Notes: generated from the sequence alone by a model not told the origin. 64,000 nucleotides of DNA from Bacteroidota bacterium (GCA_947501265.1 CANMVY010000003.1:204676-268675), one strand, 5' to 3'; positions 2,773-64,000 are shown, counted from the stretch's first letter. Numbers and translations: made by a program.

Positions 2773-3537
2773 ATGAAAAAATTGCTCTTCCTTGGAATCG
2801 CCCTTCTTTCTTTATCGGTGTACAGTCAACCGAAAAAAACGGTTTCGACTTCTAAACCCAAAGGTGCTGTTACTTCCAAAACAACCCCTAAAACAACCCC
2901 TAAAATATCGTCAACTTCAAAACCTCAAAATTCAACTAAAATGACTAATACCCCTGATACTTTGGTAAAGATTTCAACCATTCATGGTGATATGGTTGTT
3001 CGTTTGTACGAAAATACTCCATTGCATCGTGCTAATTTCATTAAACTAGCCCAAGAAGGTTATTTCGATGGGACCATTTTTCATCGTGTAATTGGTAGCT
3101 TTATGATTCAGGGAGGCGATCCCGATTCAAAAAATCCAACACCGGGTTCTCAATACGGAATGGGTGGGCCGAGCTACACCATCCCAGCTGAATTTCGTGC
3201 GGAGTATATTCATAAAAAAGGTGCATTGGCCGCTGCTAGAACCAATAATCCAGAAAAAGCGTCCAGCGGCTCCCAGTTTTACATTGTTCAAGGTCAAAAA
3301 TATCCCGCCGCTCAACTTACTCAAATGGGCGCACAATCCGGTGTTCGTTATACGCCCGAACAAACGCAATCTTACGCTAATCTTGGAGGAACTCCCTTTT
3401 TAGATATGCAATACACCGTTTTTGGAGAGGTGATTGAGGGGTTGGATGTGATTGATAAAATTGCTGCAGAACCAACCATGCCCGGTGATCGCCCTAAAAA
3501 AGACATCGTCATGAAGGTTTCTGTAGTCGTAAAATAA
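2773..3537 (+). CDS. Peptidyl-prolyl cis-trans isomerase, cyclophilin type (secreted)
   Basis: Signal peptide and S/T/P-rich linker. Cyclophilin core motifs HRVIGSFMIQGGDP and FGEVIEGLDVIDKI. Confidence 0.85.
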   Translation: MKKLLFLGIALLSLSVYSQPKKTVSTSKPKGAVTSKTTPKTTPKISSTSKPQNSTKMTNTPDTLVKISTIHGDMVVRLYENTPLHRANFIKLAQEGYFDGTIFHRVIGSFMIQGGDPDSKNPTPGSQYGMGGPSYTIPAEFRAEYIHKKGALAAARTNNPEKASSGSQFYIVQGQKYPAAQLTQMGAQSGVRYTPEQTQSYANLGGTPFLDMQYTVFGEVIEGLDVIDKIAAEPTMPGDRPKKDIVMKVSVVVK

Positions 3538-4308: not shown

Positions 4309-4842
4309 ATGAATAAAACAAATTGGATCATGGATCCTGCTCACTCTGAAATCGTGTTCAAAGTGCGCCACATGATGATTACCAATGTTTCTGGAACCTT
4401 CAATGAGTTTTCTGGAAAAATGTTGGCATCTAAAGAAGATTTTACCGATGCTGAAATTAGTTTTGAGGCCGATTTGAATTCGGTTAGTACCCGAAATGAA
4501 CAACGGGATGAGCATTTGAAAAGTCCTGATTTTTTCGATGTTACAAACTTTCCAAAACTCACCTTTACAGGTAAGGAACTCAAAAAAACTGCCGGAAACG
4601 AATATCAATTGATCGGCGAATTGGATTTGCACAAAGAAAAAAGAACCATTGTTTTGGATGTCGAATTCATGGGAGTGGCCATCGATCCATGGGGACAAGT
4701 GAAAGCTGGATTTGAAATTAAAGGATCCATTGATCGTTTTGACTACGGATTGAGTTGGAATTTAACTGCAGAAGACGGCACAGTGGTGGTTGATAAATCC
4801 ATCAAATTGGCCATCAATGCTCAATTCATCAAACAAATTTGA
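4309..4842 (+). CDS. YceI family protein
   Basis: WIMDPAHSEIVFKVRHMMITNVSGTF N-terminus typical of the YceI-like domain. About 177 aa. Confidence 0.75.
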   Translation: MNKTNWIMDPAHSEIVFKVRHMMITNVSGTFNEFSGKMLASKEDFTDAEISFEADLNSVSTRNEQRDEHLKSPDFFDVTNFPKLTFTGKELKKTAGNEYQLIGELDLHKEKRTIVLDVEFMGVAIDPWGQVKAGFEIKGSIDRFDYGLSWNLTAEDGTVVVDKSIKLAINAQFIKQI

Positions 4843-4848
4843 TGTTAA

Positions 4849-7395
4849 ATGGGCCTGATAGGAAATCCACTTCATTTCAGAGGTAACCAAAAAAAGTTTT
4901 TTCGGTTTGGTGTTGCCTTTGGATTTGTTTTTCCTATTCTGGGCACTGTTTTGGAATGTTCCTTGGCCAATGAGGGTTCATTTTCTTGGATGGAGTGTTT
5001 GGAGGTGCAAGCAAGTCGACCAGGAATTTGGCTGACGGATTTAGCGCCCATCATTATGGGATTCCTTTCCGCTTTTGCCGGGCGCTTACTCGATGAAGTC
5101 GAAAGAAAGAAGTCTCTAGCCGATAAAAGGTACGAGGAAATGCTCTCTTTGCGCCAAATTGCCGATCGTGCAAATCATGCAAAAAGCGAATTTTTGGCCA
5201 ACATGTCCCACGAAATTCGAACCCCCATGAATGCCATCATTGGCATGAATTACCTTCTAAGAAAAACCGAACTTTCCGATAAACAAGCGGAATATAACCA
5301 TAAAATTGAGGTTTCCGCCAAAAGTCTTTTGCGAATCATCGACGATATCCTCGATTTTTCCAAAATTGAGGCTGGTAAGCTTACCCTTGAAAATACGCCT
5401 CTTTTTATTGAAGAGTTGGTTCAGGAAGTTGCGGATACCGTGAATGTTAAGCTTCAGCGAAAGAAAGAGGTAGAATTGGTTACTCAAATTGATACAGATA
5501 TTCCAGCTATCATTTTAGGAGACACCATTCGATTGCGTCAAGTTCTATTGAATTTGGCTGACAATGCTGCCAAATTTACACATCAAGGAGAAATTGCCAT
5601 CCGAGTAAAGTTGGTTAGAAAGGTAGATTACGGAATTTTTCTTCATTTTAGCGTTAAAGACTCTGGAATTGGTATTTCCAAAGAACAAGCTAGAAAATTG
5701 TTTTCTCCTTTTCAGCAGGCTGATCTATCTACTACCAGAAAGTTTGGTGGAACCGGTTTAGGATTGGCCATTTGCAGAAAAATTGTAGAAATGATGGACG
5801 GAGAATTGGAAATGGAAAGTTCCCTGGGTAAGGGTTCCGAATTTCACTTCAATGCATTTTTCTCTTTACCCGTAGAAGAAGCTTTGCCCATTGCATTTTC
5901 AGAATCAATTCTGAAAGGTAAAAAAGCTCTGCTTGTAGATGATTCAGAAAGTGCCCGAATGGTTCTTGCTGAAATGTTGGGTACCATGGGGTTTCATGTT
6001 TTGGTGGCCAAAGATGCATACGAGGCCATTGAAATGTACGAAGCCGAGGATTTGGCACATCATCCCATTACACTTTTGGTGGTCGATTGGCAAATGCCAG
6101 GAATGGATGGTTTGCAATTGGTTCGTGAATTAAAAGCCAAACAAGGCCAAGAAATTCCGGCTATCCTTATGGTAACTGCGTACGGCCTTGATAGTGTGAA
6201 AGACGCTGCAAAAAATAAAGAGGTTGATGGAGTCATGTTGAAACCCATCAATCAAAGCGCTTTGCACGATACGTTGATTGAAATTCTGCATCTTAAACAA
6301 GGTAAAGACGCCATTAAACCTAAATTTGACCTCGATACGAATGTTTTGAAAGAGCATTTATTGGGAAAGAAAGTGCTTTTGGTAGAAGACAAAGAAATTA
6401 ACCGGGAATTGGCAACGGAACTATTGAACGAAGTTGGCATAAATGTCGAATCCGCTGAAAATGGAAAAATTGCCATTGAAATGGTTGAGCAAAATGCCTA
6501 TGATTTGGTTTTGATGGATATTCAAATGCCTGAAATGGATGGATTAACGGCCACGAAAATGATCCGCGCAACCGGTCGATTTTCAAATCTCCCAATCCTT
6601 GCGATGACGGCCCATGCCATGAAAGGCGAAGCCGAAAAAAGTATGGCTGCGGGGATGAATGAACACATCACCAAACCCATTGATCCCGTTTTTCTCTACA
6701 AAACCCTGTTTAAATACCTCTGCCCGCATATCACCATAGAGGATTTGAACAGTTCAGCCATGAGCAACTCCAATGAGAAAAATGAGCAGGAGGAGCAACT
6801 GATTTTGTCCATTCCAGGGATTGATACGAAAAATGGATTGAACAGAATTGGAAATAAGGCAGATGCCTATATCCGATTGTTGCAAACGTTTGCCAATACC
6901 TACAAATCCTCCGTTTCGGAAATTCAATCTTATTTCGATCTTCAAAAAAAATCTGAACTGGCTTCTTTCCTACATACTTTAGCCGGTGTTGCTGGGAATT
7001 TGGGAGCTCAAAAAGTGTATCAAATTTCCTACTCCCTTTCGGTTCGATTGAAAAATGAATCAAACGACTTCAATTGGGAGGACTTTTCCTTGGAAATTCA
7101 AGATTTGTTATCCGAAATGGAATCGATTATTTCTGAAATTCAGAAAATTGATGTCTCGGAAGGAAAAGGTCATGTTCCCCTTACCGATTTAACTCCAGAA
7201 GATATTCGATTGAAAATGGAGGAGTTAAAAATCTCCATTGAAGAAAATGACCCGGGTGCAGTTGATATTTGTCGCGAAGTTTTGAGTTCCTCTAACCTAA
7301 CGTCAATTCAAAAAAATGTTCTTCTTGAATTGCAAACCCTCTTAGCGGCGTTTGAATTTGATCAAGCGATGGTCATTATTCAGAAATTACCGTGA
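4849..7395 (+). CDS. Hybrid sensor histidine kinase/response regulator with two REC domains and a C-terminal Hpt
   Basis: H-box ANMSHEIRTPMNAIIGM. HATPase G-boxes DSGIGI and GGTGLGLAI. Two receiver domains (LLVDDSESARM with DWQMPGMDG; LLVEDKEINREL with DIQMPEMDGL). C-terminal Hpt-like helix bundle. Two short N-terminal TM helices. Confidence 0.85.
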   Translation: MGLIGNPLHFRGNQKKFFRFGVAFGFVFPILGTVLECSLANEGSFSWMECLEVQASRPGIWLTDLAPIIMGFLSAFAGRLLDEVERKKSLADKRYEEMLSLRQIADRANHAKSEFLANMSHEIRTPMNAIIGMNYLLRKTELSDKQAEYNHKIEVSAKSLLRIIDDILDFSKIEAGKLTLENTPLFIEELVQEVADTVNVKLQRKKEVELVTQIDTDIPAIILGDTIRLRQVLLNLADNAAKFTHQGEIAIRVKLVRKVDYGIFLHFSVKDSGIGISKEQARKLFSPFQQADLSTTRKFGGTGLGLAICRKIVEMMDGELEMESSLGKGSEFHFNAFFSLPVEEALPIAFSESILKGKKALLVDDSESARMVLAEMLGTMGFHVLVAKDAYEAIEMYEAEDLAHHPITLLVVDWQMPGMDGLQLVRELKAKQGQEIPAILMVTAYGLDSVKDAAKNKEVDGVMLKPINQSALHDTLIEILHLKQGKDAIKPKFDLDTNVLKEHLLGKKVLLVEDKEINRELATELLNEVGINVESAENGKIAIEMVEQNAYDLVLMDIQMPEMDGLTATKMIRATGRFSNLPILAMTAHAMKGEAEKSMAAGMNEHITKPIDPVFLYKTLFKYLCPHITIEDLNSSAMSNSNEKNEQEEQLILSIPGIDTKNGLNRIGNKADAYIRLLQTFANTYKSSVSEIQSYFDLQKKSELASFLHTLAGVAGNLGAQKVYQISYSLSVRLKNESNDFNWEDFSLEIQDLLSEMESIISEIQKIDVSEGKGHVPLTDLTPEDIRLKMEELKISIEENDPGAVDICREVLSSSNLTSIQKNVLLELQTLLAAFEFDQAMVIIQKLP

Positions 7396-45578: not shown

Positions 45579-45975
45579 GGAGTTTGGTCGAGTCGGTAAT
45601 GGGAGTTTTGGGTGTTGTGATCTGTGATTTTTTCAGATTGATTATGGAATCCAATTGTTGAACAACTGCTTGAAGAATTTGTTCGAACGCTTTTGGATTG
45701 GCTTTTTGATAATATTCCATGGTTTTAAAAAAGGAAGCCGAATCGGTTTGGTGTTTTTTAAAAACCGATAAAAAGATCTGCTTTTTCTCTTGTGGGTTAA
45801 ATTGATGAAATTGGTACACCACGTCGGCATTTTTTACCGATTCAGCCAAGTGAAGATCCAGCAAAGTTGCTGTGAATTTTTCTTGGCTGAGTTCGGGTTG
45901 TAAATCAGAATACGGGGTCGATTCACAACCGAACAAAAAAAGGATCAGCGCAATTTTCGTGTATTTTTGCATCAA
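45547..45975 (-). CDS. Hypothetical lipoprotein (DUF4296-like)
   Basis: Lipobox LILFLFGC. 142 aa. Overlaps the mutS2 start by 32 nt. Confidence 0.45.
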   Translation of the reverse strand: MMQKYTKIALILFLFGCESTPYSDLQPELSQEKFTATLLDLHLAESVKNADVVYQFHQFNPQEKKQIFLSVFKKHQTDSASFFKTMEYYQKANPKAFEQILQAVVQQLDSIINLKKSQITTPKTPITDSTKLRETISRILNR

Positions 45976-61251: not shown

Positions 61252-62163
61252 TTGAAGAAAAAAAAGATGAAAAAGTTTATTTTCTTGGTTCTATTGTTGA
61301 ATTTGGTTGTTGGGTTAGAGGCCCAGAATGTTGATTCTAGTCAAATCGTTTCGGTATTGCAAACGGATGGGACTAAATGGATCGGCCAAATTCTTTCCAG
61401 TAATTCTCGCGAAATTCTATTTAAAACCCAGGAGGGGAGGGAGCTGTATATTCCTCAATTTGTGATTTCAAAAATTGACCTGGTCAAATTATCGGAGTTC
61501 AGTGAAAGTGGAAATTACATAGGGGAAGAGAAGTTTTGTACGAGGTATTTTTTAACCACCAATGGATTGCCTTTGAAAAAGAAAACAGGGTACATTCAGT
61601 GGAATTTATTCGGTCCTGACATTCAATTTAGTGTAACGGATAAGTTGGGAGTAGGATTAATGACGAGTTGGGTGGGAATTCCGATGATTGCTACCATCAA
61701 GTATTCCACCGAAATTTCAGATAACCTTCACATTGCCTTAGGAGGATTGATTGGCACGGGCACTTGGGCTGCTCCCGATTATGGAGGTATCCTTCCTTTT
61801 GCGGCGATTACGCTTGGCAATGAGAAGCGTAACATTAACTTTAGCAGCGGTTACGGTGCTATTTGGACCGAGGGAGAGCGCGATGGCAGGACGTTGGTTT
61901 CTTTGGCTGGAATGTCGAAAATCGGCAAAAAGGTATCTTTGGTTTTTGATTCGTTCATTATTTTGCCGAAATCTGCAACGGAATTGGATCCGTTTGGAAA
62001 TCCGATAGCTACCACCAAAAATGGTTTGGCCATCATTACTCCGGGATTACGATTCCATCAATCGGAGACGTCTGCCTTCCAATTTGGATTTACCGGCATG
62101 TATGCGAACAGCGAATGGCTTCCAATACCCATTCCCATGGTTCAGTGGTACAGAGCGTTTTAA
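61252..62163 (+). CDS. Hypothetical secreted protein (possible outer-membrane beta-barrel)
   Basis: Signal peptide MKKFIFLVLLLNLVVGLEAQ. Alternating amphipathic beta-strand pattern. C-terminal aromatic ...YRAF. Confidence 0.4.
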   Translation: MKKKKMKKFIFLVLLLNLVVGLEAQNVDSSQIVSVLQTDGTKWIGQILSSNSREILFKTQEGRELYIPQFVISKIDLVKLSEFSESGNYIGEEKFCTRYFLTTNGLPLKKKTGYIQWNLFGPDIQFSVTDKLGVGLMTSWVGIPMIATIKYSTEISDNLHIALGGLIGTGTWAAPDYGGILPFAAITLGNEKRNINFSSGYGAIWTEGERDGRTLVSLAGMSKIGKKVSLVFDSFIILPKSATELDPFGNPIATTKNGLAIITPGLRFHQSETSAFQFGFTGMYANSEWLPIPIPMVQWYRAF

Positions 62164-62192
62164 ACCCATGGAATTATCGCAAGAATCAAGTT

Positions 62193-62212
62193 GTGGGCTA
62201 AATGTGGGCTAG
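62193..62212. repeat. Tandem TGTGGGCTA(A/G)A repeats (2 copies)
   Basis: TGTGGGCTAAATGTGGGCTA. The same 11-mer occurs three times at 62397-62429. Confidence 0.7.
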
Positions 62213-62213
62213 A

Positions 62214-62254
62214 ATTAAAAAGAAGAAGCCTCACGATGTGAGGCTTCTTCTTTT
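62214..62254 (-). terminator. Rho-independent terminator following the tRNA 3' fragment (minus strand)
   Basis: AGAAGAAGCCTCAC-GATG-GTGAGGCTTCTTCT hairpin with a T-run on the minus strand. Confidence 0.65.
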
Positions 62255-62282
62255 TGGTGATCCCGCTGGGACCCGAACCCAT
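62255..62282 (-). other. Displaced tRNA 3'-end fragment (T-arm, acceptor 3' strand, ACCA): likely attachment-site remnant of an integrated element
   Basis: Minus strand reads ATGGGTTCGGGTCCCAGCGGGATCACCA. Upstream sequence lacks D and anticodon arms and the matching 5' acceptor strand GATCCCG. Confidence 0.55.
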
Positions 62283-62396
62283 TATTTACTATTCATCCTT
62301 ATTCATCCTTATTTTATTCTAAATGACTTTAAATCAGCAAATTAATTGTTATTAAAAATGATCAAAGATGAATGGTGTTGATAAATAATAAGGAGA

Positions 62397-62429
62397 TGTG
62401 GGCTAAATGTGGGCTAAATGTGGGCTAAA
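62397..62429. repeat. Tandem TGTGGGCTAAA repeats (3 copies) directly upstream of the integrase gene
   Basis: Three perfect 11-bp units. Candidate integrase/Xis arm-type binding sites. Confidence 0.7.
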
Positions 62430-62459
62430 ATTTTTTAAGTTTGTACCAAGTTAATCACT

Positions 62460-63722
62460 ATGGCAACGGTAAAATTTATCATTCAAGCAAACTCAAATAA
62501 TTCCAGGGTTTACCTAAGGTTCCGTGATGGAAGAGGGGTAGATATTAAGTTAAAAACCGATTATATCATCTCTGTAAATCAATGGGATCTTCAGAGAGGA
62601 TTCCCTAAAAGAGCTGGAGATGAAATAGCAAAGTTTATCAATGCAGAATTAAAAACACTCGAAGCAACGATTTATGAAAGATATAATCGAACGGATAGAT
62701 CGGTTGTAATTGATACAAATTGGTTAAAAGAAATTGTCAATACAGGTCAAAGTGTTAATCATGTCGTCAAAAAGAAAGATTCTGCGTTGTTTTCTAGCCA
62801 AGTCGATAAGTATGTATTAGCCAAAAGGAAATTGGTTAAAGCATCTGCTATAAGAAAATATAAACGAACCAATGAAATCGTTCAAGAAATTGGAAAATTA
62901 TTGCAAAAAAAAATCAAAGTAAAGGATATTGATTGGGATTTTAAGGCACAATTTGATGATTATTGTAACGTTCAAGCGTACAGTCCTTCCTATATTCGTA
63001 AAGTGTTCAAGAATATCAAAACAATTGCTGAGTTTGCTTTTATCCAAGATGGAGTAGAGATTCATCCAATGCTAAGGGGGAGGGTGCCTTATTCAGAAAG
63101 TGAAAACAAGGCGATTTTTCTTTCATTTGAAGAGATTGAGAGAATTGAAAACTTTGATTTTGAAAATGAAAGGTTAAATAATGTCCGAGATTGGTTAATC
63201 ATTAGCTGTGGAACAGGTGCGAGGATCTCGGATTTTATGAATTTTTCACCTCAAATGATTGAAAAGTATATTTCAAACGGAAAAGTGGTAAGGGATATCA
63301 AGTATCGCCAAGTGAAAACAAATCAACAAATATTGAGTGGAATTTATGAAAATACTCCAATGTATAGAACTTTAAAACGTTTGGGTTGGACGTTCCCTCC
63401 CAAGATATCAAGTCAGAAATATAATGATTATCTTAAAGAGATTGGTAAATTAGCCGGATTGGATGACGTAGTTGAAGGGGATAAAATAGATCCGAATACC
63501 AAACGAAAGGTAAGGGGACGTTTTAAAAAGTTTGAGTTATTAACCTCCCATATTGGAAGACGAAGTTTTGCAACCAACTATTATGGGAAAATCCCAACCT
63601 CAGATTTAATGGTATTAACTGGGCATAAAAGTGAAGGAATGCTTTTGAAATATATCCGAAAAAGCGGAGAAGAGAAAAATGTTGAAGCGGTCAATAAAGT
63701 AAGAAAATGGTTACATTCATAA
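62460..63722 (+). CDS. Site-specific tyrosine integrase (Bacteroidota CTn/ICE-type with N-terminal arm-binding domain)
   Basis: N-terminal MATVKFIIQANSNNSRVYLRFRDG, typical of Bacteroidota integrase arm-binding domains. C-terminal catalytic region with HIGRRSFAT and LTGHKSEGMLLKY (R..H..R..Y). Confidence 0.85.
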   Translation: MATVKFIIQANSNNSRVYLRFRDGRGVDIKLKTDYIISVNQWDLQRGFPKRAGDEIAKFINAELKTLEATIYERYNRTDRSVVIDTNWLKEIVNTGQSVNHVVKKKDSALFSSQVDKYVLAKRKLVKASAIRKYKRTNEIVQEIGKLLQKKIKVKDIDWDFKAQFDDYCNVQAYSPSYIRKVFKNIKTIAEFAFIQDGVEIHPMLRGRVPYSESENKAIFLSFEEIERIENFDFENERLNNVRDWLIISCGTGARISDFMNFSPQMIEKYISNGKVVRDIKYRQVKTNQQILSGIYENTPMYRTLKRLGWTFPPKISSQKYNDYLKEIGKLAGLDDVVEGDKIDPNTKRKVRGRFKKFELLTSHIGRRSFATNYYGKIPTSDLMVLTGHKSEGMLLKYIRKSGEEKNVEAVNKVRKWLHS

Positions 63723-64000
63723 ACTGGCTTAATGGGGAAGTAGAAATTTCTGGGTCTGACTTAAATTTCCACGTAACGAATATTCCTAATTTTGTTTCTA
63801 TTAGCGATTTTTCTGAAGATGACCAAGTTCAGATAGTAAATCACCTAAAAGAGTTGTTTGAAAGATATGTAGATGAGTCTTTTTGCCAATTTAAAACTAA
63901 TTGTGAAGCTCAACTTGAAAATTCTCAAGAAAAGAAAGCATTAATCACGAAGAATATTCAGCAAATTACCGAGATTCTAAATGGGGACATCCATTTTACA
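63707..64000 (+). CDS. Hypothetical protein, 3' end outside window (first cargo gene of the putative element)
   Basis: ORF open to the window end (MVTFINWLNGEVEISGSDLNF...). Overlaps the integrase stop by 16 nt. Not in the ORF track because it is truncated. Confidence 0.3.
   Translation, partial: MVTFINWLNGEVEISGSDLNFHVTNIPNFVSISDFSEDDQVQIVNHLKELFERYVDESFCQFKTNCEAQLENSQEKKALITKNIQQITEILNGDIHFT

What the first reader, a model, noticed from the sequence alone, without database searches (positions are those of the whole stretch)
62164..64000. Boundary of an integrated element: tyrosine integrase, orphan tRNA 3' fragment with its own terminator, and TGTGGGCTAAA tandem repeats
On the minus strand at 62255-62282 there is a perfect tRNA 3' end (T-arm, 7-nt acceptor strand, discriminator, CCA). 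It is followed by a strong terminator, but the rest of the tRNA is missing. This is the classic displaced 3' fragment left when an element with a tRNA-3'-end attP integrates. It is bracketed by 2 and 3 tandem copies of TGTGGGCTAAA, which are candidate arm-type sites. Directly after it comes a CTn/ICE-type tyrosine integrase, then an unknown ORF running off the window. A genomic island, ICE or prophage therefore probably begins at about 62.2 kb and extends to the right. Its cargo is not visible here.
Basis: partly seen in the sequence, partly recalled or inferred. Interest (0 to 1): 0.65.

Follow-up and report, generated by a model that had tools for sequence, protein, structure and literature searches.

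The report
Genomic island inserted in tRNA-Lys gene
This is the left edge of a mobile genomic island that has inserted into the end of a lysine tRNA gene in an uncultured Bacteroidota bacterium; it is a well-known kind of element, documented here in unusual detail with an empty site, three different occupants and conserved integrase-binding repeats.

Summary
Bases 62255-62281 (minus strand) match the last 27 nt of tRNA-Lys(UUU), including CCA, at 26 of 27 positions (A58 is G). A related genome (L111) shows the unoccupied site: the same upstream gene, TGTGGGCTAAA pair and hairpin, then an intact tRNA-Lys and an amidohydrolase gene.

The island begins exactly at 62257. To the left, a second host lineage is about 86% identical. 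To the right it is 100% identical for at least 3 kb. The same element also sits behind a third, unrelated flank.

The integrase has an intact catalytic set and a predicted lambda-like three-domain fold.

In complete relatives, a tandem pair of an element-specific 10-11-nt motif lies before int and again, with a hairpin, beside the intact tRNA. The three copies at 62397-62429 are therefore probable arm-type sites that overlap the int promoter. The left pair and hairpin lie outside the present island and remain at the empty site, so I read them as a relic arm of an earlier element.

Cargo seen on other contigs is a conserved 292-aa ORF and a giant DUF6443/RHS-family protein. No tra or phage genes were seen. 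The right end was not reached.

Verdict: ordinary in kind, a new member.

The parts
61267..62163 (+). Last host gene before the junction (298 aa, no known family). It is context, not part of the island.
   Evidence: It is conserved in synteny with the E1 dehydrogenase and FAA hydrolase genes in all related hosts, whether the site is occupied or empty. It is 86-88% identical at the nucleotide level between hosts.
62192..62213 (+). Host-flank tandem pair TGTGGGCTAAA / TGTGGGCTAGA. Interpreted as a relic P-arm pair of arm-type sites left by an earlier element of the same family.
   Evidence: It is present at the unoccupied site L111, L116 and L105-110, and beside a different element in L026/L027. 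It is absent from the L003/4/6 host, which has a 56-nt indel. It has the same order (pair, hairpin, tRNA 3' end) as the right arms of complete relatives. It is 21-22 of 22 conserved while the adjacent spacer is 67-74%.
62217..62255 (.). Perfect 18-bp hairpin with a 3-nt loop, an A-run on the left and a T-run on the right. It is a bidirectional intrinsic terminator for the host gene (+) and for tRNA-Lys (-).
   Evidence: An identical hairpin directly follows the intact tRNA-Lys in L111. The simple terminator scan did not list it. The likely reason, which I did not verify, is that the T-run lies inside the stem.
62255..62281 (-). Displaced 3' fragment of tRNA-Lys(UUU), tRNA positions 50-76: part of the T-stem, the T-loop, the 3' acceptor strand, discriminator A and CCA. 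It serves as the att core.
   Evidence: It matches the L111 tRNA-Lys(ttt) at 26 of 27 positions and the L008 tRNA-Lys. The single mismatch is at 62273 (position 58). No 5' part of a tRNA follows.
62257..62271 (.). Outer boundary of the island (62256|62257) and the inferred strand-exchange zone (tRNA positions 74-60).
   Evidence: Identity among all carriers of the element begins at 62257. The G58 variant at 62273 travels with the element in three different flanks. A third element at this site (L117) shares only GGTGATCCCGCTGGGA. Direct repeats in relatives are 13-21 nt long and start at the same tRNA position. The exchange zone itself is an inference.
62257..64000 (+). Left-hand 1.74 kb of the integrated island, which continues beyond the window.
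   Evidence: It is 100% identical in hosts that are about 86% identical to the left of 62257. G+C is 33% against 41% for the host.
62290..62309 (+). TATTCATCCT x2 directly beside the core. Possible core-proximal accessory site; function unknown.
   Evidence: repeat D19. L026/L027 have a different short repeat (TTCGT...TTCGT) at the same place. Not tested further.
62397..62429 (+). Three exact tandem copies of TGTGGGCTAAA with an 11-bp period. Probable arm-type (P' arm) binding sites for the integrase N-terminal domain, overlapping the int promoter.
   Evidence: The closest relative (int 55-56% identical) has TACGGGCTAAA x2.5-3.5 at the same position. 26 of 67 family loci have a period-10/11 tandem pair within 110 nt of the int ATG, against 15 of 292 control windows (p=9e-12). 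The same motif recurs on the other arm in complete relatives.
62436..62443 (+). TAAGTTTG, which matches the Bacteroidetes -7 promoter consensus TAnnTTTG, 24 nt before the int ATG.
   Evidence: The motif is found within 60 nt of the int ATG in 28 of 67 family loci against 8 of 310 controls, mostly at -24 to -32. The consensus itself comes from established knowledge and was not tested here.
62460..63722 (+). Tyrosine integrase, 420 aa, three-domain (arm-binding, core-binding, catalytic).
   Evidence: PF13102 and PF00589; PHROG integrase. R255, K286, H364, R367, H389 and Y398 are invariant in 55 homologues. The AlphaFold model (pLDDT 89.5) has an N-terminal 3-strand sheet plus helix and a flexible linker at 97-104. 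The best PDB match is full-length lambda Int, 1z1b.
63707..64000 (+). First 98 codons of a 292-aa ORF that overlaps int by 16 nt. It is a conserved partner of this integrase clade, of unknown family.
   Evidence: The full ORF is seen on L002 at 1504-2382. The L026/L027 element has a 291-aa homologue (32% identity, E=7e-32) in the same overlapping arrangement. There is no hit in Pfam, PHROGs, PADLOC or NCBIfam.

Best explanation
Positions 62257 to 64000 and beyond are the left end of a site-specifically integrated genomic island. The island entered the 3' end of a tRNA-Lys(UUU) gene that lies on the minus strand just downstream of a host gene.

Mechanism. The island's heterobivalent tyrosine integrase (62460-63722) recombined an attP whose core copies tRNA positions about 50-74 with the chromosomal tRNA-Lys. 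Strand exchange took place within the 3' acceptor strand / T-stem part (about 62257-62271). This left the original tRNA 3' end and its terminator stranded at 62217-62281, next to int. The 5' body of the tRNA, now completed by island-borne sequence, should lie at the far end.

Repeats. The three 11-bp-spaced TGTGGGCTAAA copies, 30 nt before int, are arm-type sites bound by the integrase N-terminal domain. Because they cover the -33 region of the int promoter, they probably also let Int repress its own gene. The two copies left of the hairpin, together with the hairpin, are not part of the present island. They have the exact layout of the other (P) arm of such elements. They are best read as a relic of an earlier element of the same family that stayed attached to the tRNA when the rest was lost.

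Cargo. Visible cargo is a conserved 292-aa partner ORF, a 64-aa ORF and a giant (>=2210 aa) DUF6443/RHS-family protein.

What is shown: the boundary, the tRNA identity, the empty site, the polymorphic occupancy, the integrase architecture and the family-wide repeat layout. What is inferred: the exchange zone, Int binding to the repeats, autoregulation and the relic origin.
For: Boundary.
- Window against L003: 74-95% identity per 100-nt bin left of 62100, and 100% from 62300 on. The last difference is at 62256.
- There are 0 mismatches over 2.9-3.05 kb from the int start among L001, L002, L003 and L005.
- L002 has an unrelated left flank that joins at the same base.
- G+C drops from 41% to 33% at the boundary.

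tRNA identity and empty site.
- L111 reads: gene298, pair, identical hairpin, tRNA-Lys(ttt) at 4505-4580(-), amidohydrolase. Rfam scores the tRNA at 71.5 bits.
- L116 and L105-110 also continue into the tRNA body.
- The L111, L026 and L117 hosts are 98-99% identical to one another, yet the site is empty, occupied by a 56%-identity-integrase element, or occupied by a third insert.

Family architecture.
- 6 of 6 relatives with a downstream minus-strand tRNA carry a 13-21-nt direct repeat of its 3' end upstream of int. These elements are 6.8-10 kb long.
- In L047, L049, L050, L064 and L085 the same motif pair lies on both arms, with a hairpin between the P-arm pair and the tRNA.
- Period-10/11 pairs before int: 26 of 67 loci against 15 of 292 controls, p=9e-12.
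- A TAnnTTTG box follows the repeats in 28 of 67 loci against 8 of 310 controls.

Integrase.
- Domains. Catalytic residues. Model and lambda Int match.

Cargo.
-.
- The giant protein is 58% identical to the DUF6443 giant protein of the L026-type island. It is therefore conserved island cargo rather than host DNA.
Against: - The right end of this element, with its intact tRNA-Lys, was never seen. Every contig stops inside the giant gene, and the source genome was not retrievable.
- No excised circular form or attP has been observed.
- No excisionase-like gene was recognised. Distant relatives have an HTH_17 gene, but this clade does not within the visible part.
- The Pfam arm-binding model PF17293 scores below its threshold (14.8 against 22.6 bits), so the arm-binding domain rests on a predicted structure.
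- Binding of Int to the repeats is untested. The repeats before int could be purely regulatory.
- The relic reading of the left pair does not easily explain why the pair and hairpin are better conserved between hosts (63 of 65) than the neighbouring gene (88%) or spacer (74%).
- The L002 flank is only 53 nt long, so it is unknown whether it is another tRNA-Lys locus or another species.
Confidence: 0.88

Rival explanations
1. The tandem TGTGGGCTAAA copies before int are only operator or promoter elements, bound by Int or another regulator to control int transcription. They play no architectural part in recombination.
For: They sit 7-39 nt upstream of a TAnnTTTG -7-like box, so they cover the -33 region. 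Across the family the pairs lie at -25 to -71 from the ATG. KplE1 IntS is a known case in which integrase gene control works through sites at the attachment region (title and abstract).
Against: In five complete relatives the same element-specific motif pair occurs again 5-9 kb away, 55-75 nt from the tRNA on the other arm and far from any int promoter. That is the layout of arm-type sites. The two roles are not exclusive.
Confidence: 0.15
2. The host-flank pair and hairpin (62192-62256) are not a dead relic. They are a maintained, functional extension of the attachment site. An attB that carries arm-type sites would act as a 'landing pad' that makes this tRNA-Lys a preferred target. Alternatively, the block may form a roughly 90-nt extended direct repeat with the island's own P arm, through which host flank and element are homogenised.
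For: The pair and hairpin are 63 of 65 identical between hosts whose adjacent gene is 88% and whose spacer is 74% identical. The pair is 22 of 22 between L111 and L105, whose spacer is 74% identical. Three different elements use this site. The pair carries the motif of the window-type element even where the resident element uses TACGGGCTAAA.
Against: The same window-type element is integrated in the L003/4/6 host and behind the L002 flank, and both lack the pair. The pair is therefore not required. Left flanks of the six complete relatives show no such pair. Host DNA has no obvious reason to keep sites for the benefit of an element. The counts are small.
Confidence: 0.2
3. The island is an integrative conjugative element or a prophage, with its transfer or virion genes lying beyond the visible part.
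For: The integrase belongs to the Bacteroidota type used by CTnDOT and NBU elements and, distantly (about 28% identity), by Cellulophaga and Bacteroides phages. The right end is unseen. The related L026-type island is longer than 21 kb.
Against: No PHROG, Pfam, PADLOC or NCBIfam match to any transfer, mobilisation, replication or virion protein was found in the 9.8 kb seen of the window-type island or the 21 kb seen of the L026-type island. What is there are giant DUF6443/RHS-family and other unknown giant proteins.
Confidence: 0.15
4. The tRNA-like stretch is a chance resemblance or a decayed tRNA duplicate unrelated to integration, and the int region spread between genomes by homologous recombination of flanking DNA.
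For: ARAGORN and Rfam call nothing at 62255-62282. The fragment has a non-canonical G at T-loop position 58.
Against: - The 22-mer occurs once in the window, with 0 expected.
- It equals the end of the tRNA-Lys that occupies exactly this position in the empty site.
- Identity between carriers begins at the tRNA's position 74, in three unrelated or diverged flanks.
- Six relatives show the full arrangement of fragment, int, cargo and tRNA.
Confidence: 0.02

Closest known systems
NBU1 / NBU2 mobilisable elements of Bacteroides (IntN1, IntN2), within the IntCTnDOT subgroup of arm-binding tyrosine recombinases
   Same: Both have a Bacteroidota-type integrase with an N-terminal arm-binding domain, an enlarged core-binding domain (PF13102) and a catalytic domain. 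Both integrate site-specifically into the 3' end of a tRNA gene, and the catalytic Arg I is retained as in the NBU integrases. The subgroup description is in PMC8138268. The tRNA-Leu and tRNA-Ser targets of NBU1 and NBU2 are from my own knowledge.
   Different: No mob gene, oriT or primase was seen here. The target is tRNA-Lys. The cargo is a giant RHS-family protein. The integrase has no close relatives: 56% identity to one clade, then 41% or less. No sequence comparison with IntN1 itself was possible.
Riemerella anatipestifer 10K genomic island (PMC6764341)
   Same: It is a small island in a member of the Flavobacteriales, with an IntN1-like tyrosine integrase, sited next to a tRNA (Arg) gene and flanked by direct repeats. 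It is present in some strains and absent in others, and it excises as a circle.
   Different: Its direct repeat is 53 bp and lies downstream of the tRNA, whereas here a 25-nt core lies inside the tRNA 3' end. Tandem arm repeats were not described there. The cargo differs.
Phage lambda Int / attP, the paradigm of heterobivalent integrases
   Same: Both have a three-domain integrase; the best structural matches of the model are full-length lambda Int, 1z1b and 1z1g. In both, short arm-type sites lie on both sides of a core, separate from the core sites. Here this is shown in relatives.
   Different: Here the arm sites are strictly tandem, 11-bp-spaced pairs or triplets in direct orientation on both arms. 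The core is a tRNA 3' end. The P arm carries a terminator hairpin for the rebuilt tRNA. Sequence identity to lambda Int is only about 15%.
KplE1 prophage intS regulation (PMC2951348)
   Same: That system is described as a paradigm in which integrase expression is tightly controlled at the attachment region. The layout here, with arm repeats over the int promoter, would allow the same kind of control.
   Different: For this element it is inferred only from positions. I did not read that paper beyond its abstract.
Small P4-like or satellite-like islands of marine and freshwater Bacteroidota (distant relatives L047-L085 found here)
   Same: They share the integrase family (28-36% identity), the same order of parts (tRNA 3' repeat, arm pair, int, cargo, arm pair, hairpin, tRNA) and the same orientation.
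   Different: Those elements are 6.8-10 kb and carry an HTH_17 Xis-like gene and a DUF5906 primase/helicase-like gene. The window-type island and its 56% relative instead carry the ORF292 partner and giant proteins, and are at least 9.8 kb and more than 21 kb long respectively.

Membership tests
Tyrosine recombinase (integrase) superfamily | Catalytic R-K-H-R-H/W pentad plus the tyrosine nucleophile in a PF00589 domain | tested here: met
   PF00589 scores 27.9 bits against a cut-off of 27.1. R255, K286, H364, R367, H389 and Y398 are invariant in alignments of 16 and 55 homologues.
Heterobivalent, arm-binding integrases (IntCTnDOT / NBU-type subgroup) | SAM-like enlarged core-binding domain (PF13102) | tested here: met
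   PF13102, E=7e-9, residues 111-203.
Heterobivalent, arm-binding integrases (IntCTnDOT / NBU-type subgroup) | N-terminal arm-binding domain | tested here: inconclusive
   PF17293 scores only 14.8 bits against a cut-off of 22.6. The AlphaFold model shows strands 3-8, 14-22 and 28-38 plus helix 55-77, separated from the rest by a low-confidence linker at 97-104. Full-length lambda Int is the best PDB match. Some homologues carry a precomputed PF17293. The domain is structurally supported, but no binding test was possible.
Heterobivalent, arm-binding integrases (IntCTnDOT / NBU-type subgroup) | Phylogenetic placement with CTnDOT/NBU integrases | not tested
The hosts are Bacteroidota, as for that subgroup.
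tRNA-gene-targeting integrative island | A sequence at the junction identical to the 3' end of a tRNA gene | tested here: met
   62255-62281 matches 26 of 27 positions of the L111 tRNA-Lys(ttt) 3' end.
tRNA-gene-targeting integrative island | An unoccupied site with an intact tRNA in related genomes | tested here: met
   L111 shows it completely. L116 and L105-110 show it partially.
tRNA-gene-targeting integrative island | An intact tRNA plus a direct repeat at the opposite end of the same element | not testable with these tools
   All contigs end within the giant gene. The feature is met in 6 of 6 family relatives that have a downstream tRNA.
tRNA-gene-targeting integrative island | Evidence of recent mobility: the same element in different hosts or flanks | tested here: met
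   The element is 100% identical in hosts that are 86% identical, and behind a third flank.
Arm-type integrase binding sites | The same short motif repeated on both arms of attP, element-specific, separate from the core | tested here: inconclusive
   Shown for the relatives L047, L049, L050, L064 and L085, and as a family-wide enrichment before int. For this element only the int-side arm is visible. The second set (62192-62213) lies in host-side DNA.
Arm-type integrase binding sites | Binding by the integrase N-terminal domain | not testable with these tools
   This needs EMSA or footprinting.
Integrative conjugative element (CTn) / prophage | Conjugation (T4SS, relaxase) or virion (capsid, terminase) genes inside the element | tested here: not met
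   None were found in the 9.8 kb of the window-type island or the 21 kb of the L026-type island that could be read. The remainder is unseen.
RHS / YD-repeat polymorphic toxin (cargo gene, outside the window) | DUF6443 N-terminal region, RHS repeats, RHS core and a variable C-terminal toxin | tested here: inconclusive
   DUF6443 is met (29.3 bits). The homologues at E down to 1e-147 are annotated as RHS repeat proteins. No PF05593 hit was found in the part seen, and the C-terminus was never seen.

The most novel reading that the evidence does not exclude
The TGTGGGCTAAA pair and hairpin in the host flank may be a conserved, functional P-arm-like module that stays with the chromosomal tRNA-Lys. 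In effect this would be an attB carrying arm-type sites. It would turn this tRNA into a shared landing pad for a family of RHS-toxin-carrying islands, and it would be kept homogeneous with the islands' own arms by recombination across an extended direct repeat of about 90 nt.
Probability: 0.2. Interest if true: 0.6.

Novelty: new member of a known kind. Interest (0 to 1): 0.38.

Why it matters
The finding gives a precisely mapped example of island integration in an uncultured freshwater-type Bacteroidota lineage. The example includes the boundary to the base, the target tRNA, an empty site, three alternative occupants and probable arm sites.

It also yields a simple signature for annotating attP arms across a large and poorly described family of Bacteroidota integrases. 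The signature is tandem 11-bp-spaced motif pairs before int and again, with a terminator, beside the tRNA.

The island moves a giant RHS-family (toxin-like) gene between species that differ by about 14-17% in DNA sequence. That is relevant to how such genes spread.

None of this changes current understanding of site-specific integration.

Tried and rejected
1. Finding the source genome. A genome-contig scan with the 22-nt core returned only partial tRNA-Lys copies in an unrelated Bacteroidota MAG. The 270-kb NCBI contig that carries these proteins was never returned by the contig look-ups.

2. Reaching the right end.
- A search with the partial giant protein found only relatives of 31% identity or less.

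3. Empty site through distant homologues of the upstream gene (P0013, P0015). These loci are not syntenic. P0002 and P0003 had no DNA.

4. Viral-contig scans.
- A scan for GGGCTAAATGTGGGCTA gave six hits, all in the same position inside what reads as a coding stretch of related viral contigs. I treat these as coincidence.
- A scan for the native tRNA-Lys end found one unrelated viral contig that ends in tRNA-Lys.

5. Rfam. Nothing meaningful was found in the intergenic region; all hits were hairpin-driven and far below threshold. Nothing was found on L002 or L026.

6. Function of ORF292 and of the other cargo ORFs. There were no matches in Pfam, PHROGs, PADLOC or NCBIfam.

7. Phage and plasmid collections contained only integrases of 30% identity or less.

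8. The idea that the island ends in the 627-bp gap after ORF292 is rejected. The 100% identity between hosts continues to at least 80 nt into the giant gene, and the giant gene is conserved in the related island.
Full report
**1. The observation**

- TGTGGGCTAAA occurs at 62192-62202. A one-mismatch copy follows directly at 62203-62213, and three exact copies lie at 62397-62429.
- The only other near-match in 64 kb is a one-mismatch copy at 45791. Six matches compare with 1.05 expected, and none of 100 shuffles reached six.
- Positions 62217-62234 and 62238-62255 form a perfect 18-bp hairpin with a 3-nt loop, an A-run on its left and a T-run on its right. It can therefore terminate transcripts from both strands, including the upstream + strand gene 61267-62163.
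- ARAGORN finds no tRNA here; the only tRNA in the window is tRNA-His at 2631-2705. Rfam gives no tRNA match even at E<=10.
- The ORF at 62460-63722 carries PF13102 and PF00589.
- A further ORF starts at 63707, overlaps int by 16 nt and leaves the window.

**2. Is the fragment really a tRNA end, and of which tRNA?**

A closely related genome supplies the answer. Locus L111 (NCBI assembly GCA_027488715.1) has the following order:
- the orthologue of the upstream gene;
- a 31-nt spacer;
- TGTGGGCTAAATGTGGGCTAAA;
- the identical hairpin;
- an intact tRNA-Lys(ttt) on the minus strand at 4505-4580;
- a + strand amidohydrolase gene.

The evidence for this is, and Rfam scores the tRNA at 71.5 bits.

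Window positions 62255-62281 equal the last 27 nt of that tRNA (positions 76 to 50) with one difference. Position 62273, T-loop position 58, is G in the window and A in the tRNA. At 62282 the similarity ends, so the first T-stem pair is missing.

'Perfect' is therefore slightly overstated, but the identification is secure. The 22-mer core is unique in the window, with zero expected by chance. The same tRNA-Lys end is seen in another Bacteroidota MAG (L008).

**3. Where the island begins**

The same integrase (100% protein identity) is encoded on several metagenome contigs.
- L003, L004 and L006 have the same upstream gene, but their host DNA is only about 86% identical to the window. From 62257 rightwards they are 100% identical to the end of the window and beyond, and the last difference is at 62256.
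- From the int start there are no mismatches over 2.9-3.05 kb among L001, L002, L003 and L005.
- L002 has a completely different left flank, with another hairpin, that joins at the same base.
- G+C falls from 41% (host) to 33%.

This is the signature of a recently transferred element whose outer boundary is tRNA position 74/75.

The encoded CCA belongs to the window host's flank. The other flanks read ...ATCACGA.

The G at position 58 travels with the element in all three flanks. It is therefore part of the element's attP. Strand exchange must then lie to its left, that is within 62257-62271. This last step is an inference.

It agrees with a third kind of insert at the same site (L117), which shares only GGTGATCCCGCTGGGA with the tRNA. 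It also agrees with the 13-21-nt repeats of relatives described below.

**4. The site is polymorphic and a hot spot**

The hosts of L111, L026/L027/L112 and L117 are 98-99% identical to each other. Despite this, the site differs among them:
- it is empty in L111 (L116 and L105-110 also read into the tRNA body; the host identity of those contigs to L111 was not measured);
- it is occupied by an element whose integrase is 55-56% identical to the window's (L026, L027, L112);
- it is occupied by a third insert (L117).

The window host is about 83% identical to that species.

**5. The integrase**

R255, K286, H364, R367, H389 and Y398 are invariant in 55 homologues.

An AlphaFold model (mean pLDDT 89.5) has three parts:
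- an N-terminal three-stranded sheet plus helix (residues 3-77);
- a disordered linker (97-104);
- a helical core-binding domain followed by the catalytic domain.

The best PDB matches are full-length lambda integrase, 1z1b and 1z1g. The Pfam arm-binding model PF17293 is only weakly matched, at 14.8 bits.

The protein is isolated in sequence space. There is one 100% cluster and one clade at 56%, and everything else is at 41% or below. Phage and plasmid collections hold only relatives of 30% identity or less.

It fits the Bacteroidota arm-binding integrases described as the IntCTnDOT subgroup, which includes NBU1 (PMC8138268). I could not place it phylogenetically.

**6. The family architecture and the repeats**

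A metagenome scan returned 79 loci with related integrases.

In all six loci that contain a minus-strand tRNA 5-8.5 kb downstream of int, a 13-21-nt direct repeat of the tRNA's 3' end lies upstream of int. The tRNAs are Arg, Pro, Leu and others. The repeat begins at the same tRNA position as the window boundary and lies about 150-210 nt before the int start codon (up to about 700 nt from the tblastn match start), giving elements of 6.8-10 kb.

In five of these elements (L047, L049, L050, L064, L085) a tandem pair of an element-specific 10-11-nt motif lies in two places. One pair lies 25-70 nt before the int ATG. The same motif lies again, in the same orientation, 55-75 nt before the intact tRNA's 3' end, with a terminator-like hairpin between that pair and the tRNA.

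Across the family, 26 of 67 loci have a period-10/11 tandem pair within 110 nt of the int ATG, against 15 of 292 control windows (Fisher p=9e-12).

The motif changes with the element. Examples are TACGGGCTAAA in the 56% relative, TGTGGACTAAC, GGTTGGGAAAT, ATCGTACAAAA and TTGTGTGCAA.

Element-specific motifs on both arms, away from the core, are what arm-type sites look like. The caveat is that binding is untested.

The repeats are followed by TAAGTTTG at 62436-62443. This matches the Bacteroidetes -7 promoter consensus TAnnTTTG, which I know from the literature rather than from a test here. The same box follows the repeats in 28 of 67 family loci against 8 of 310 controls. Int bound to these sites would sit on the -33 region of its own promoter. 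Autoregulation is therefore likely, but it is an inference. The KplE1 intS system is a described precedent for integrase control at the attachment region.

**7. The left pair**

The two copies at 62192-62213 are not part of the present island.
- They lie left of the transfer boundary.
- They are absent from the L003/4/6 host (a 56-nt indel) and from the 53 nt of the L002 flank.
- They are present at the empty site (L111, L116, L105-110) and beside the other element, whose own repeats read TACGGGCTAAA.

Their layout (pair, then hairpin, then tRNA 3' end, with 43 nt between pair and tRNA) is that of the P arm of complete family members. Host flanks of those members show no such pair.

The simplest history has three steps. 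An earlier element with the TGTGGGCTAAA motif integrated here. Its P arm stayed attached to the rebuilt tRNA while the rest was deleted. Later elements then integrated into that tRNA.

One thing remains unexplained. The pair and hairpin are 63 of 65 identical between the window host and the L111 species, although the adjacent gene is 88% and the spacer 74% identical. The pair is 22 of 22 between L111 and L105, whose spacer is 74% identical. This suggests either constraint or continuing exchange with the P arms of resident elements. I list that as the most novel reading not excluded.

**8. Cargo and kind of element**

On L002 the island continues as follows:
- the 292-aa ORF, of which 98 codons are in the window;
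- a 627-bp gap;
- a 64-aa ORF;
- a protein of at least 1612 aa with DUF6443, whose homologues are annotated as RHS repeat proteins.

Other contigs show that the giant protein is at least 2210 aa, so the island is at least 9.8 kb long.

The 56% relative has a 291-aa ORF in the same overlapping position (32% identity). About 14 kb further on, after ORFs of 715, 368, 196, 2173 and 246 aa, it has a DUF6443 protein 58% identical to the window-type one. The int/ORF29x pair and the giant DUF6443 gene are thus conserved parts of this island clade. That island is longer than 21 kb.

No match to transfer, mobilisation, replication, virion or defence families was found in any visible ORF. 'ICE or prophage' is therefore not supported by what can be seen, and how the island moves between cells is unknown.

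More distant relatives are different. They are small islands with an HTH_17 Xis-like gene and a DUF5906 primase/helicase-like gene.

**9. Comparison with known systems, and verdict**

The closest described systems are:
- the NBU-type elements and the CTnDOT integrase subgroup;
- the Riemerella 10K island next to tRNA-Arg (PMC6764341);
- lambda, for the logic of arm sites.

Everything shown here fits that known kind. The target (tRNA-Lys), the integrase clade, the ORF292 partner and the RHS-type cargo are new members rather than a new mechanism.

The right end, the excised form and DNA binding were not testable. Interest is moderate to low. The relic or landing-pad arm at the empty site is the one feature worth a further look.

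Noticed in passing
L007 2270-2355 and L008 6560-6625 (MAG Bacteroidota SP4G1.39): These are partial tRNA-Lys copies with the anticodon arm, T arm and 3' acceptor strand but no 5' acceptor strand or D arm. They carry exactly the same A58-to-G T-loop variant as the window fragment. Each lies next to a related ORF; the L008 copy (about 80 aa, L008 6290-6533, minus strand) looks GIY-YIG-like by eye, which was not tested against Pfam. In L008 they lie beside a genuine tRNA-Lys(ttt) at 6737-6812. This could be a separate small mobile cassette that duplicates part of the tRNA.
   Followed up: partly
window 62290-62309: TATTCATCCT occurs twice in tandem, immediately inside the island next to the core. 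The 56% relative has a different short repeat (TTCGT...TTCGT) at the same place. This is a possible accessory-protein site.
   Followed up: no
window 62235-62237 compared with L105 and L003: The hairpin loop reads GAT in the window, L111 and L026, but ATC (its reverse complement) in L105 and L003. The stems are otherwise homologous.
   Followed up: no
L001, L003 and L005 ends (L002 coordinates about 3197-3308); L105-110, L113 and L116 ends: Independent assemblies repeatedly stop either inside tRNA-Lys or at the start of the giant DUF6443 gene. This suggests repeated copies or population heterogeneity at both points.
   Followed up: no
L117 1323-1931: This is a third kind of insert at the same tRNA-Lys. 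It shares only 16 nt with the tRNA end. It has a single GGGCTAAA about 30 nt inside and a 75-aa minus-strand ORF.
   Followed up: no
L125 4600-6740 (= L026 10000-12150) and L125 10597-17118: The related island has 2.1 kb without an ORF of 70 aa or more. It also has a 2173-aa protein with no Pfam match, followed by a 246-aa ORF and the DUF6443 giant gene. The layout is vaguely reminiscent of multi-component toxin loci, but this was not tested.
   Followed up: partly
L002 3228-8063 compared with L002 257-3227: The giant gene has 45% G+C. The int/ORF292/gap module has 29-34% and the host 41%. The island looks like a mosaic.
   Followed up: no
window 61267-62163: The upstream host gene (298 aa, with an N-terminus that looks like a signal peptide) has hundreds of homologues in Crocinitomicaceae-like Bacteroidota but no Pfam or NCBIfam family.
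   Followed up: no
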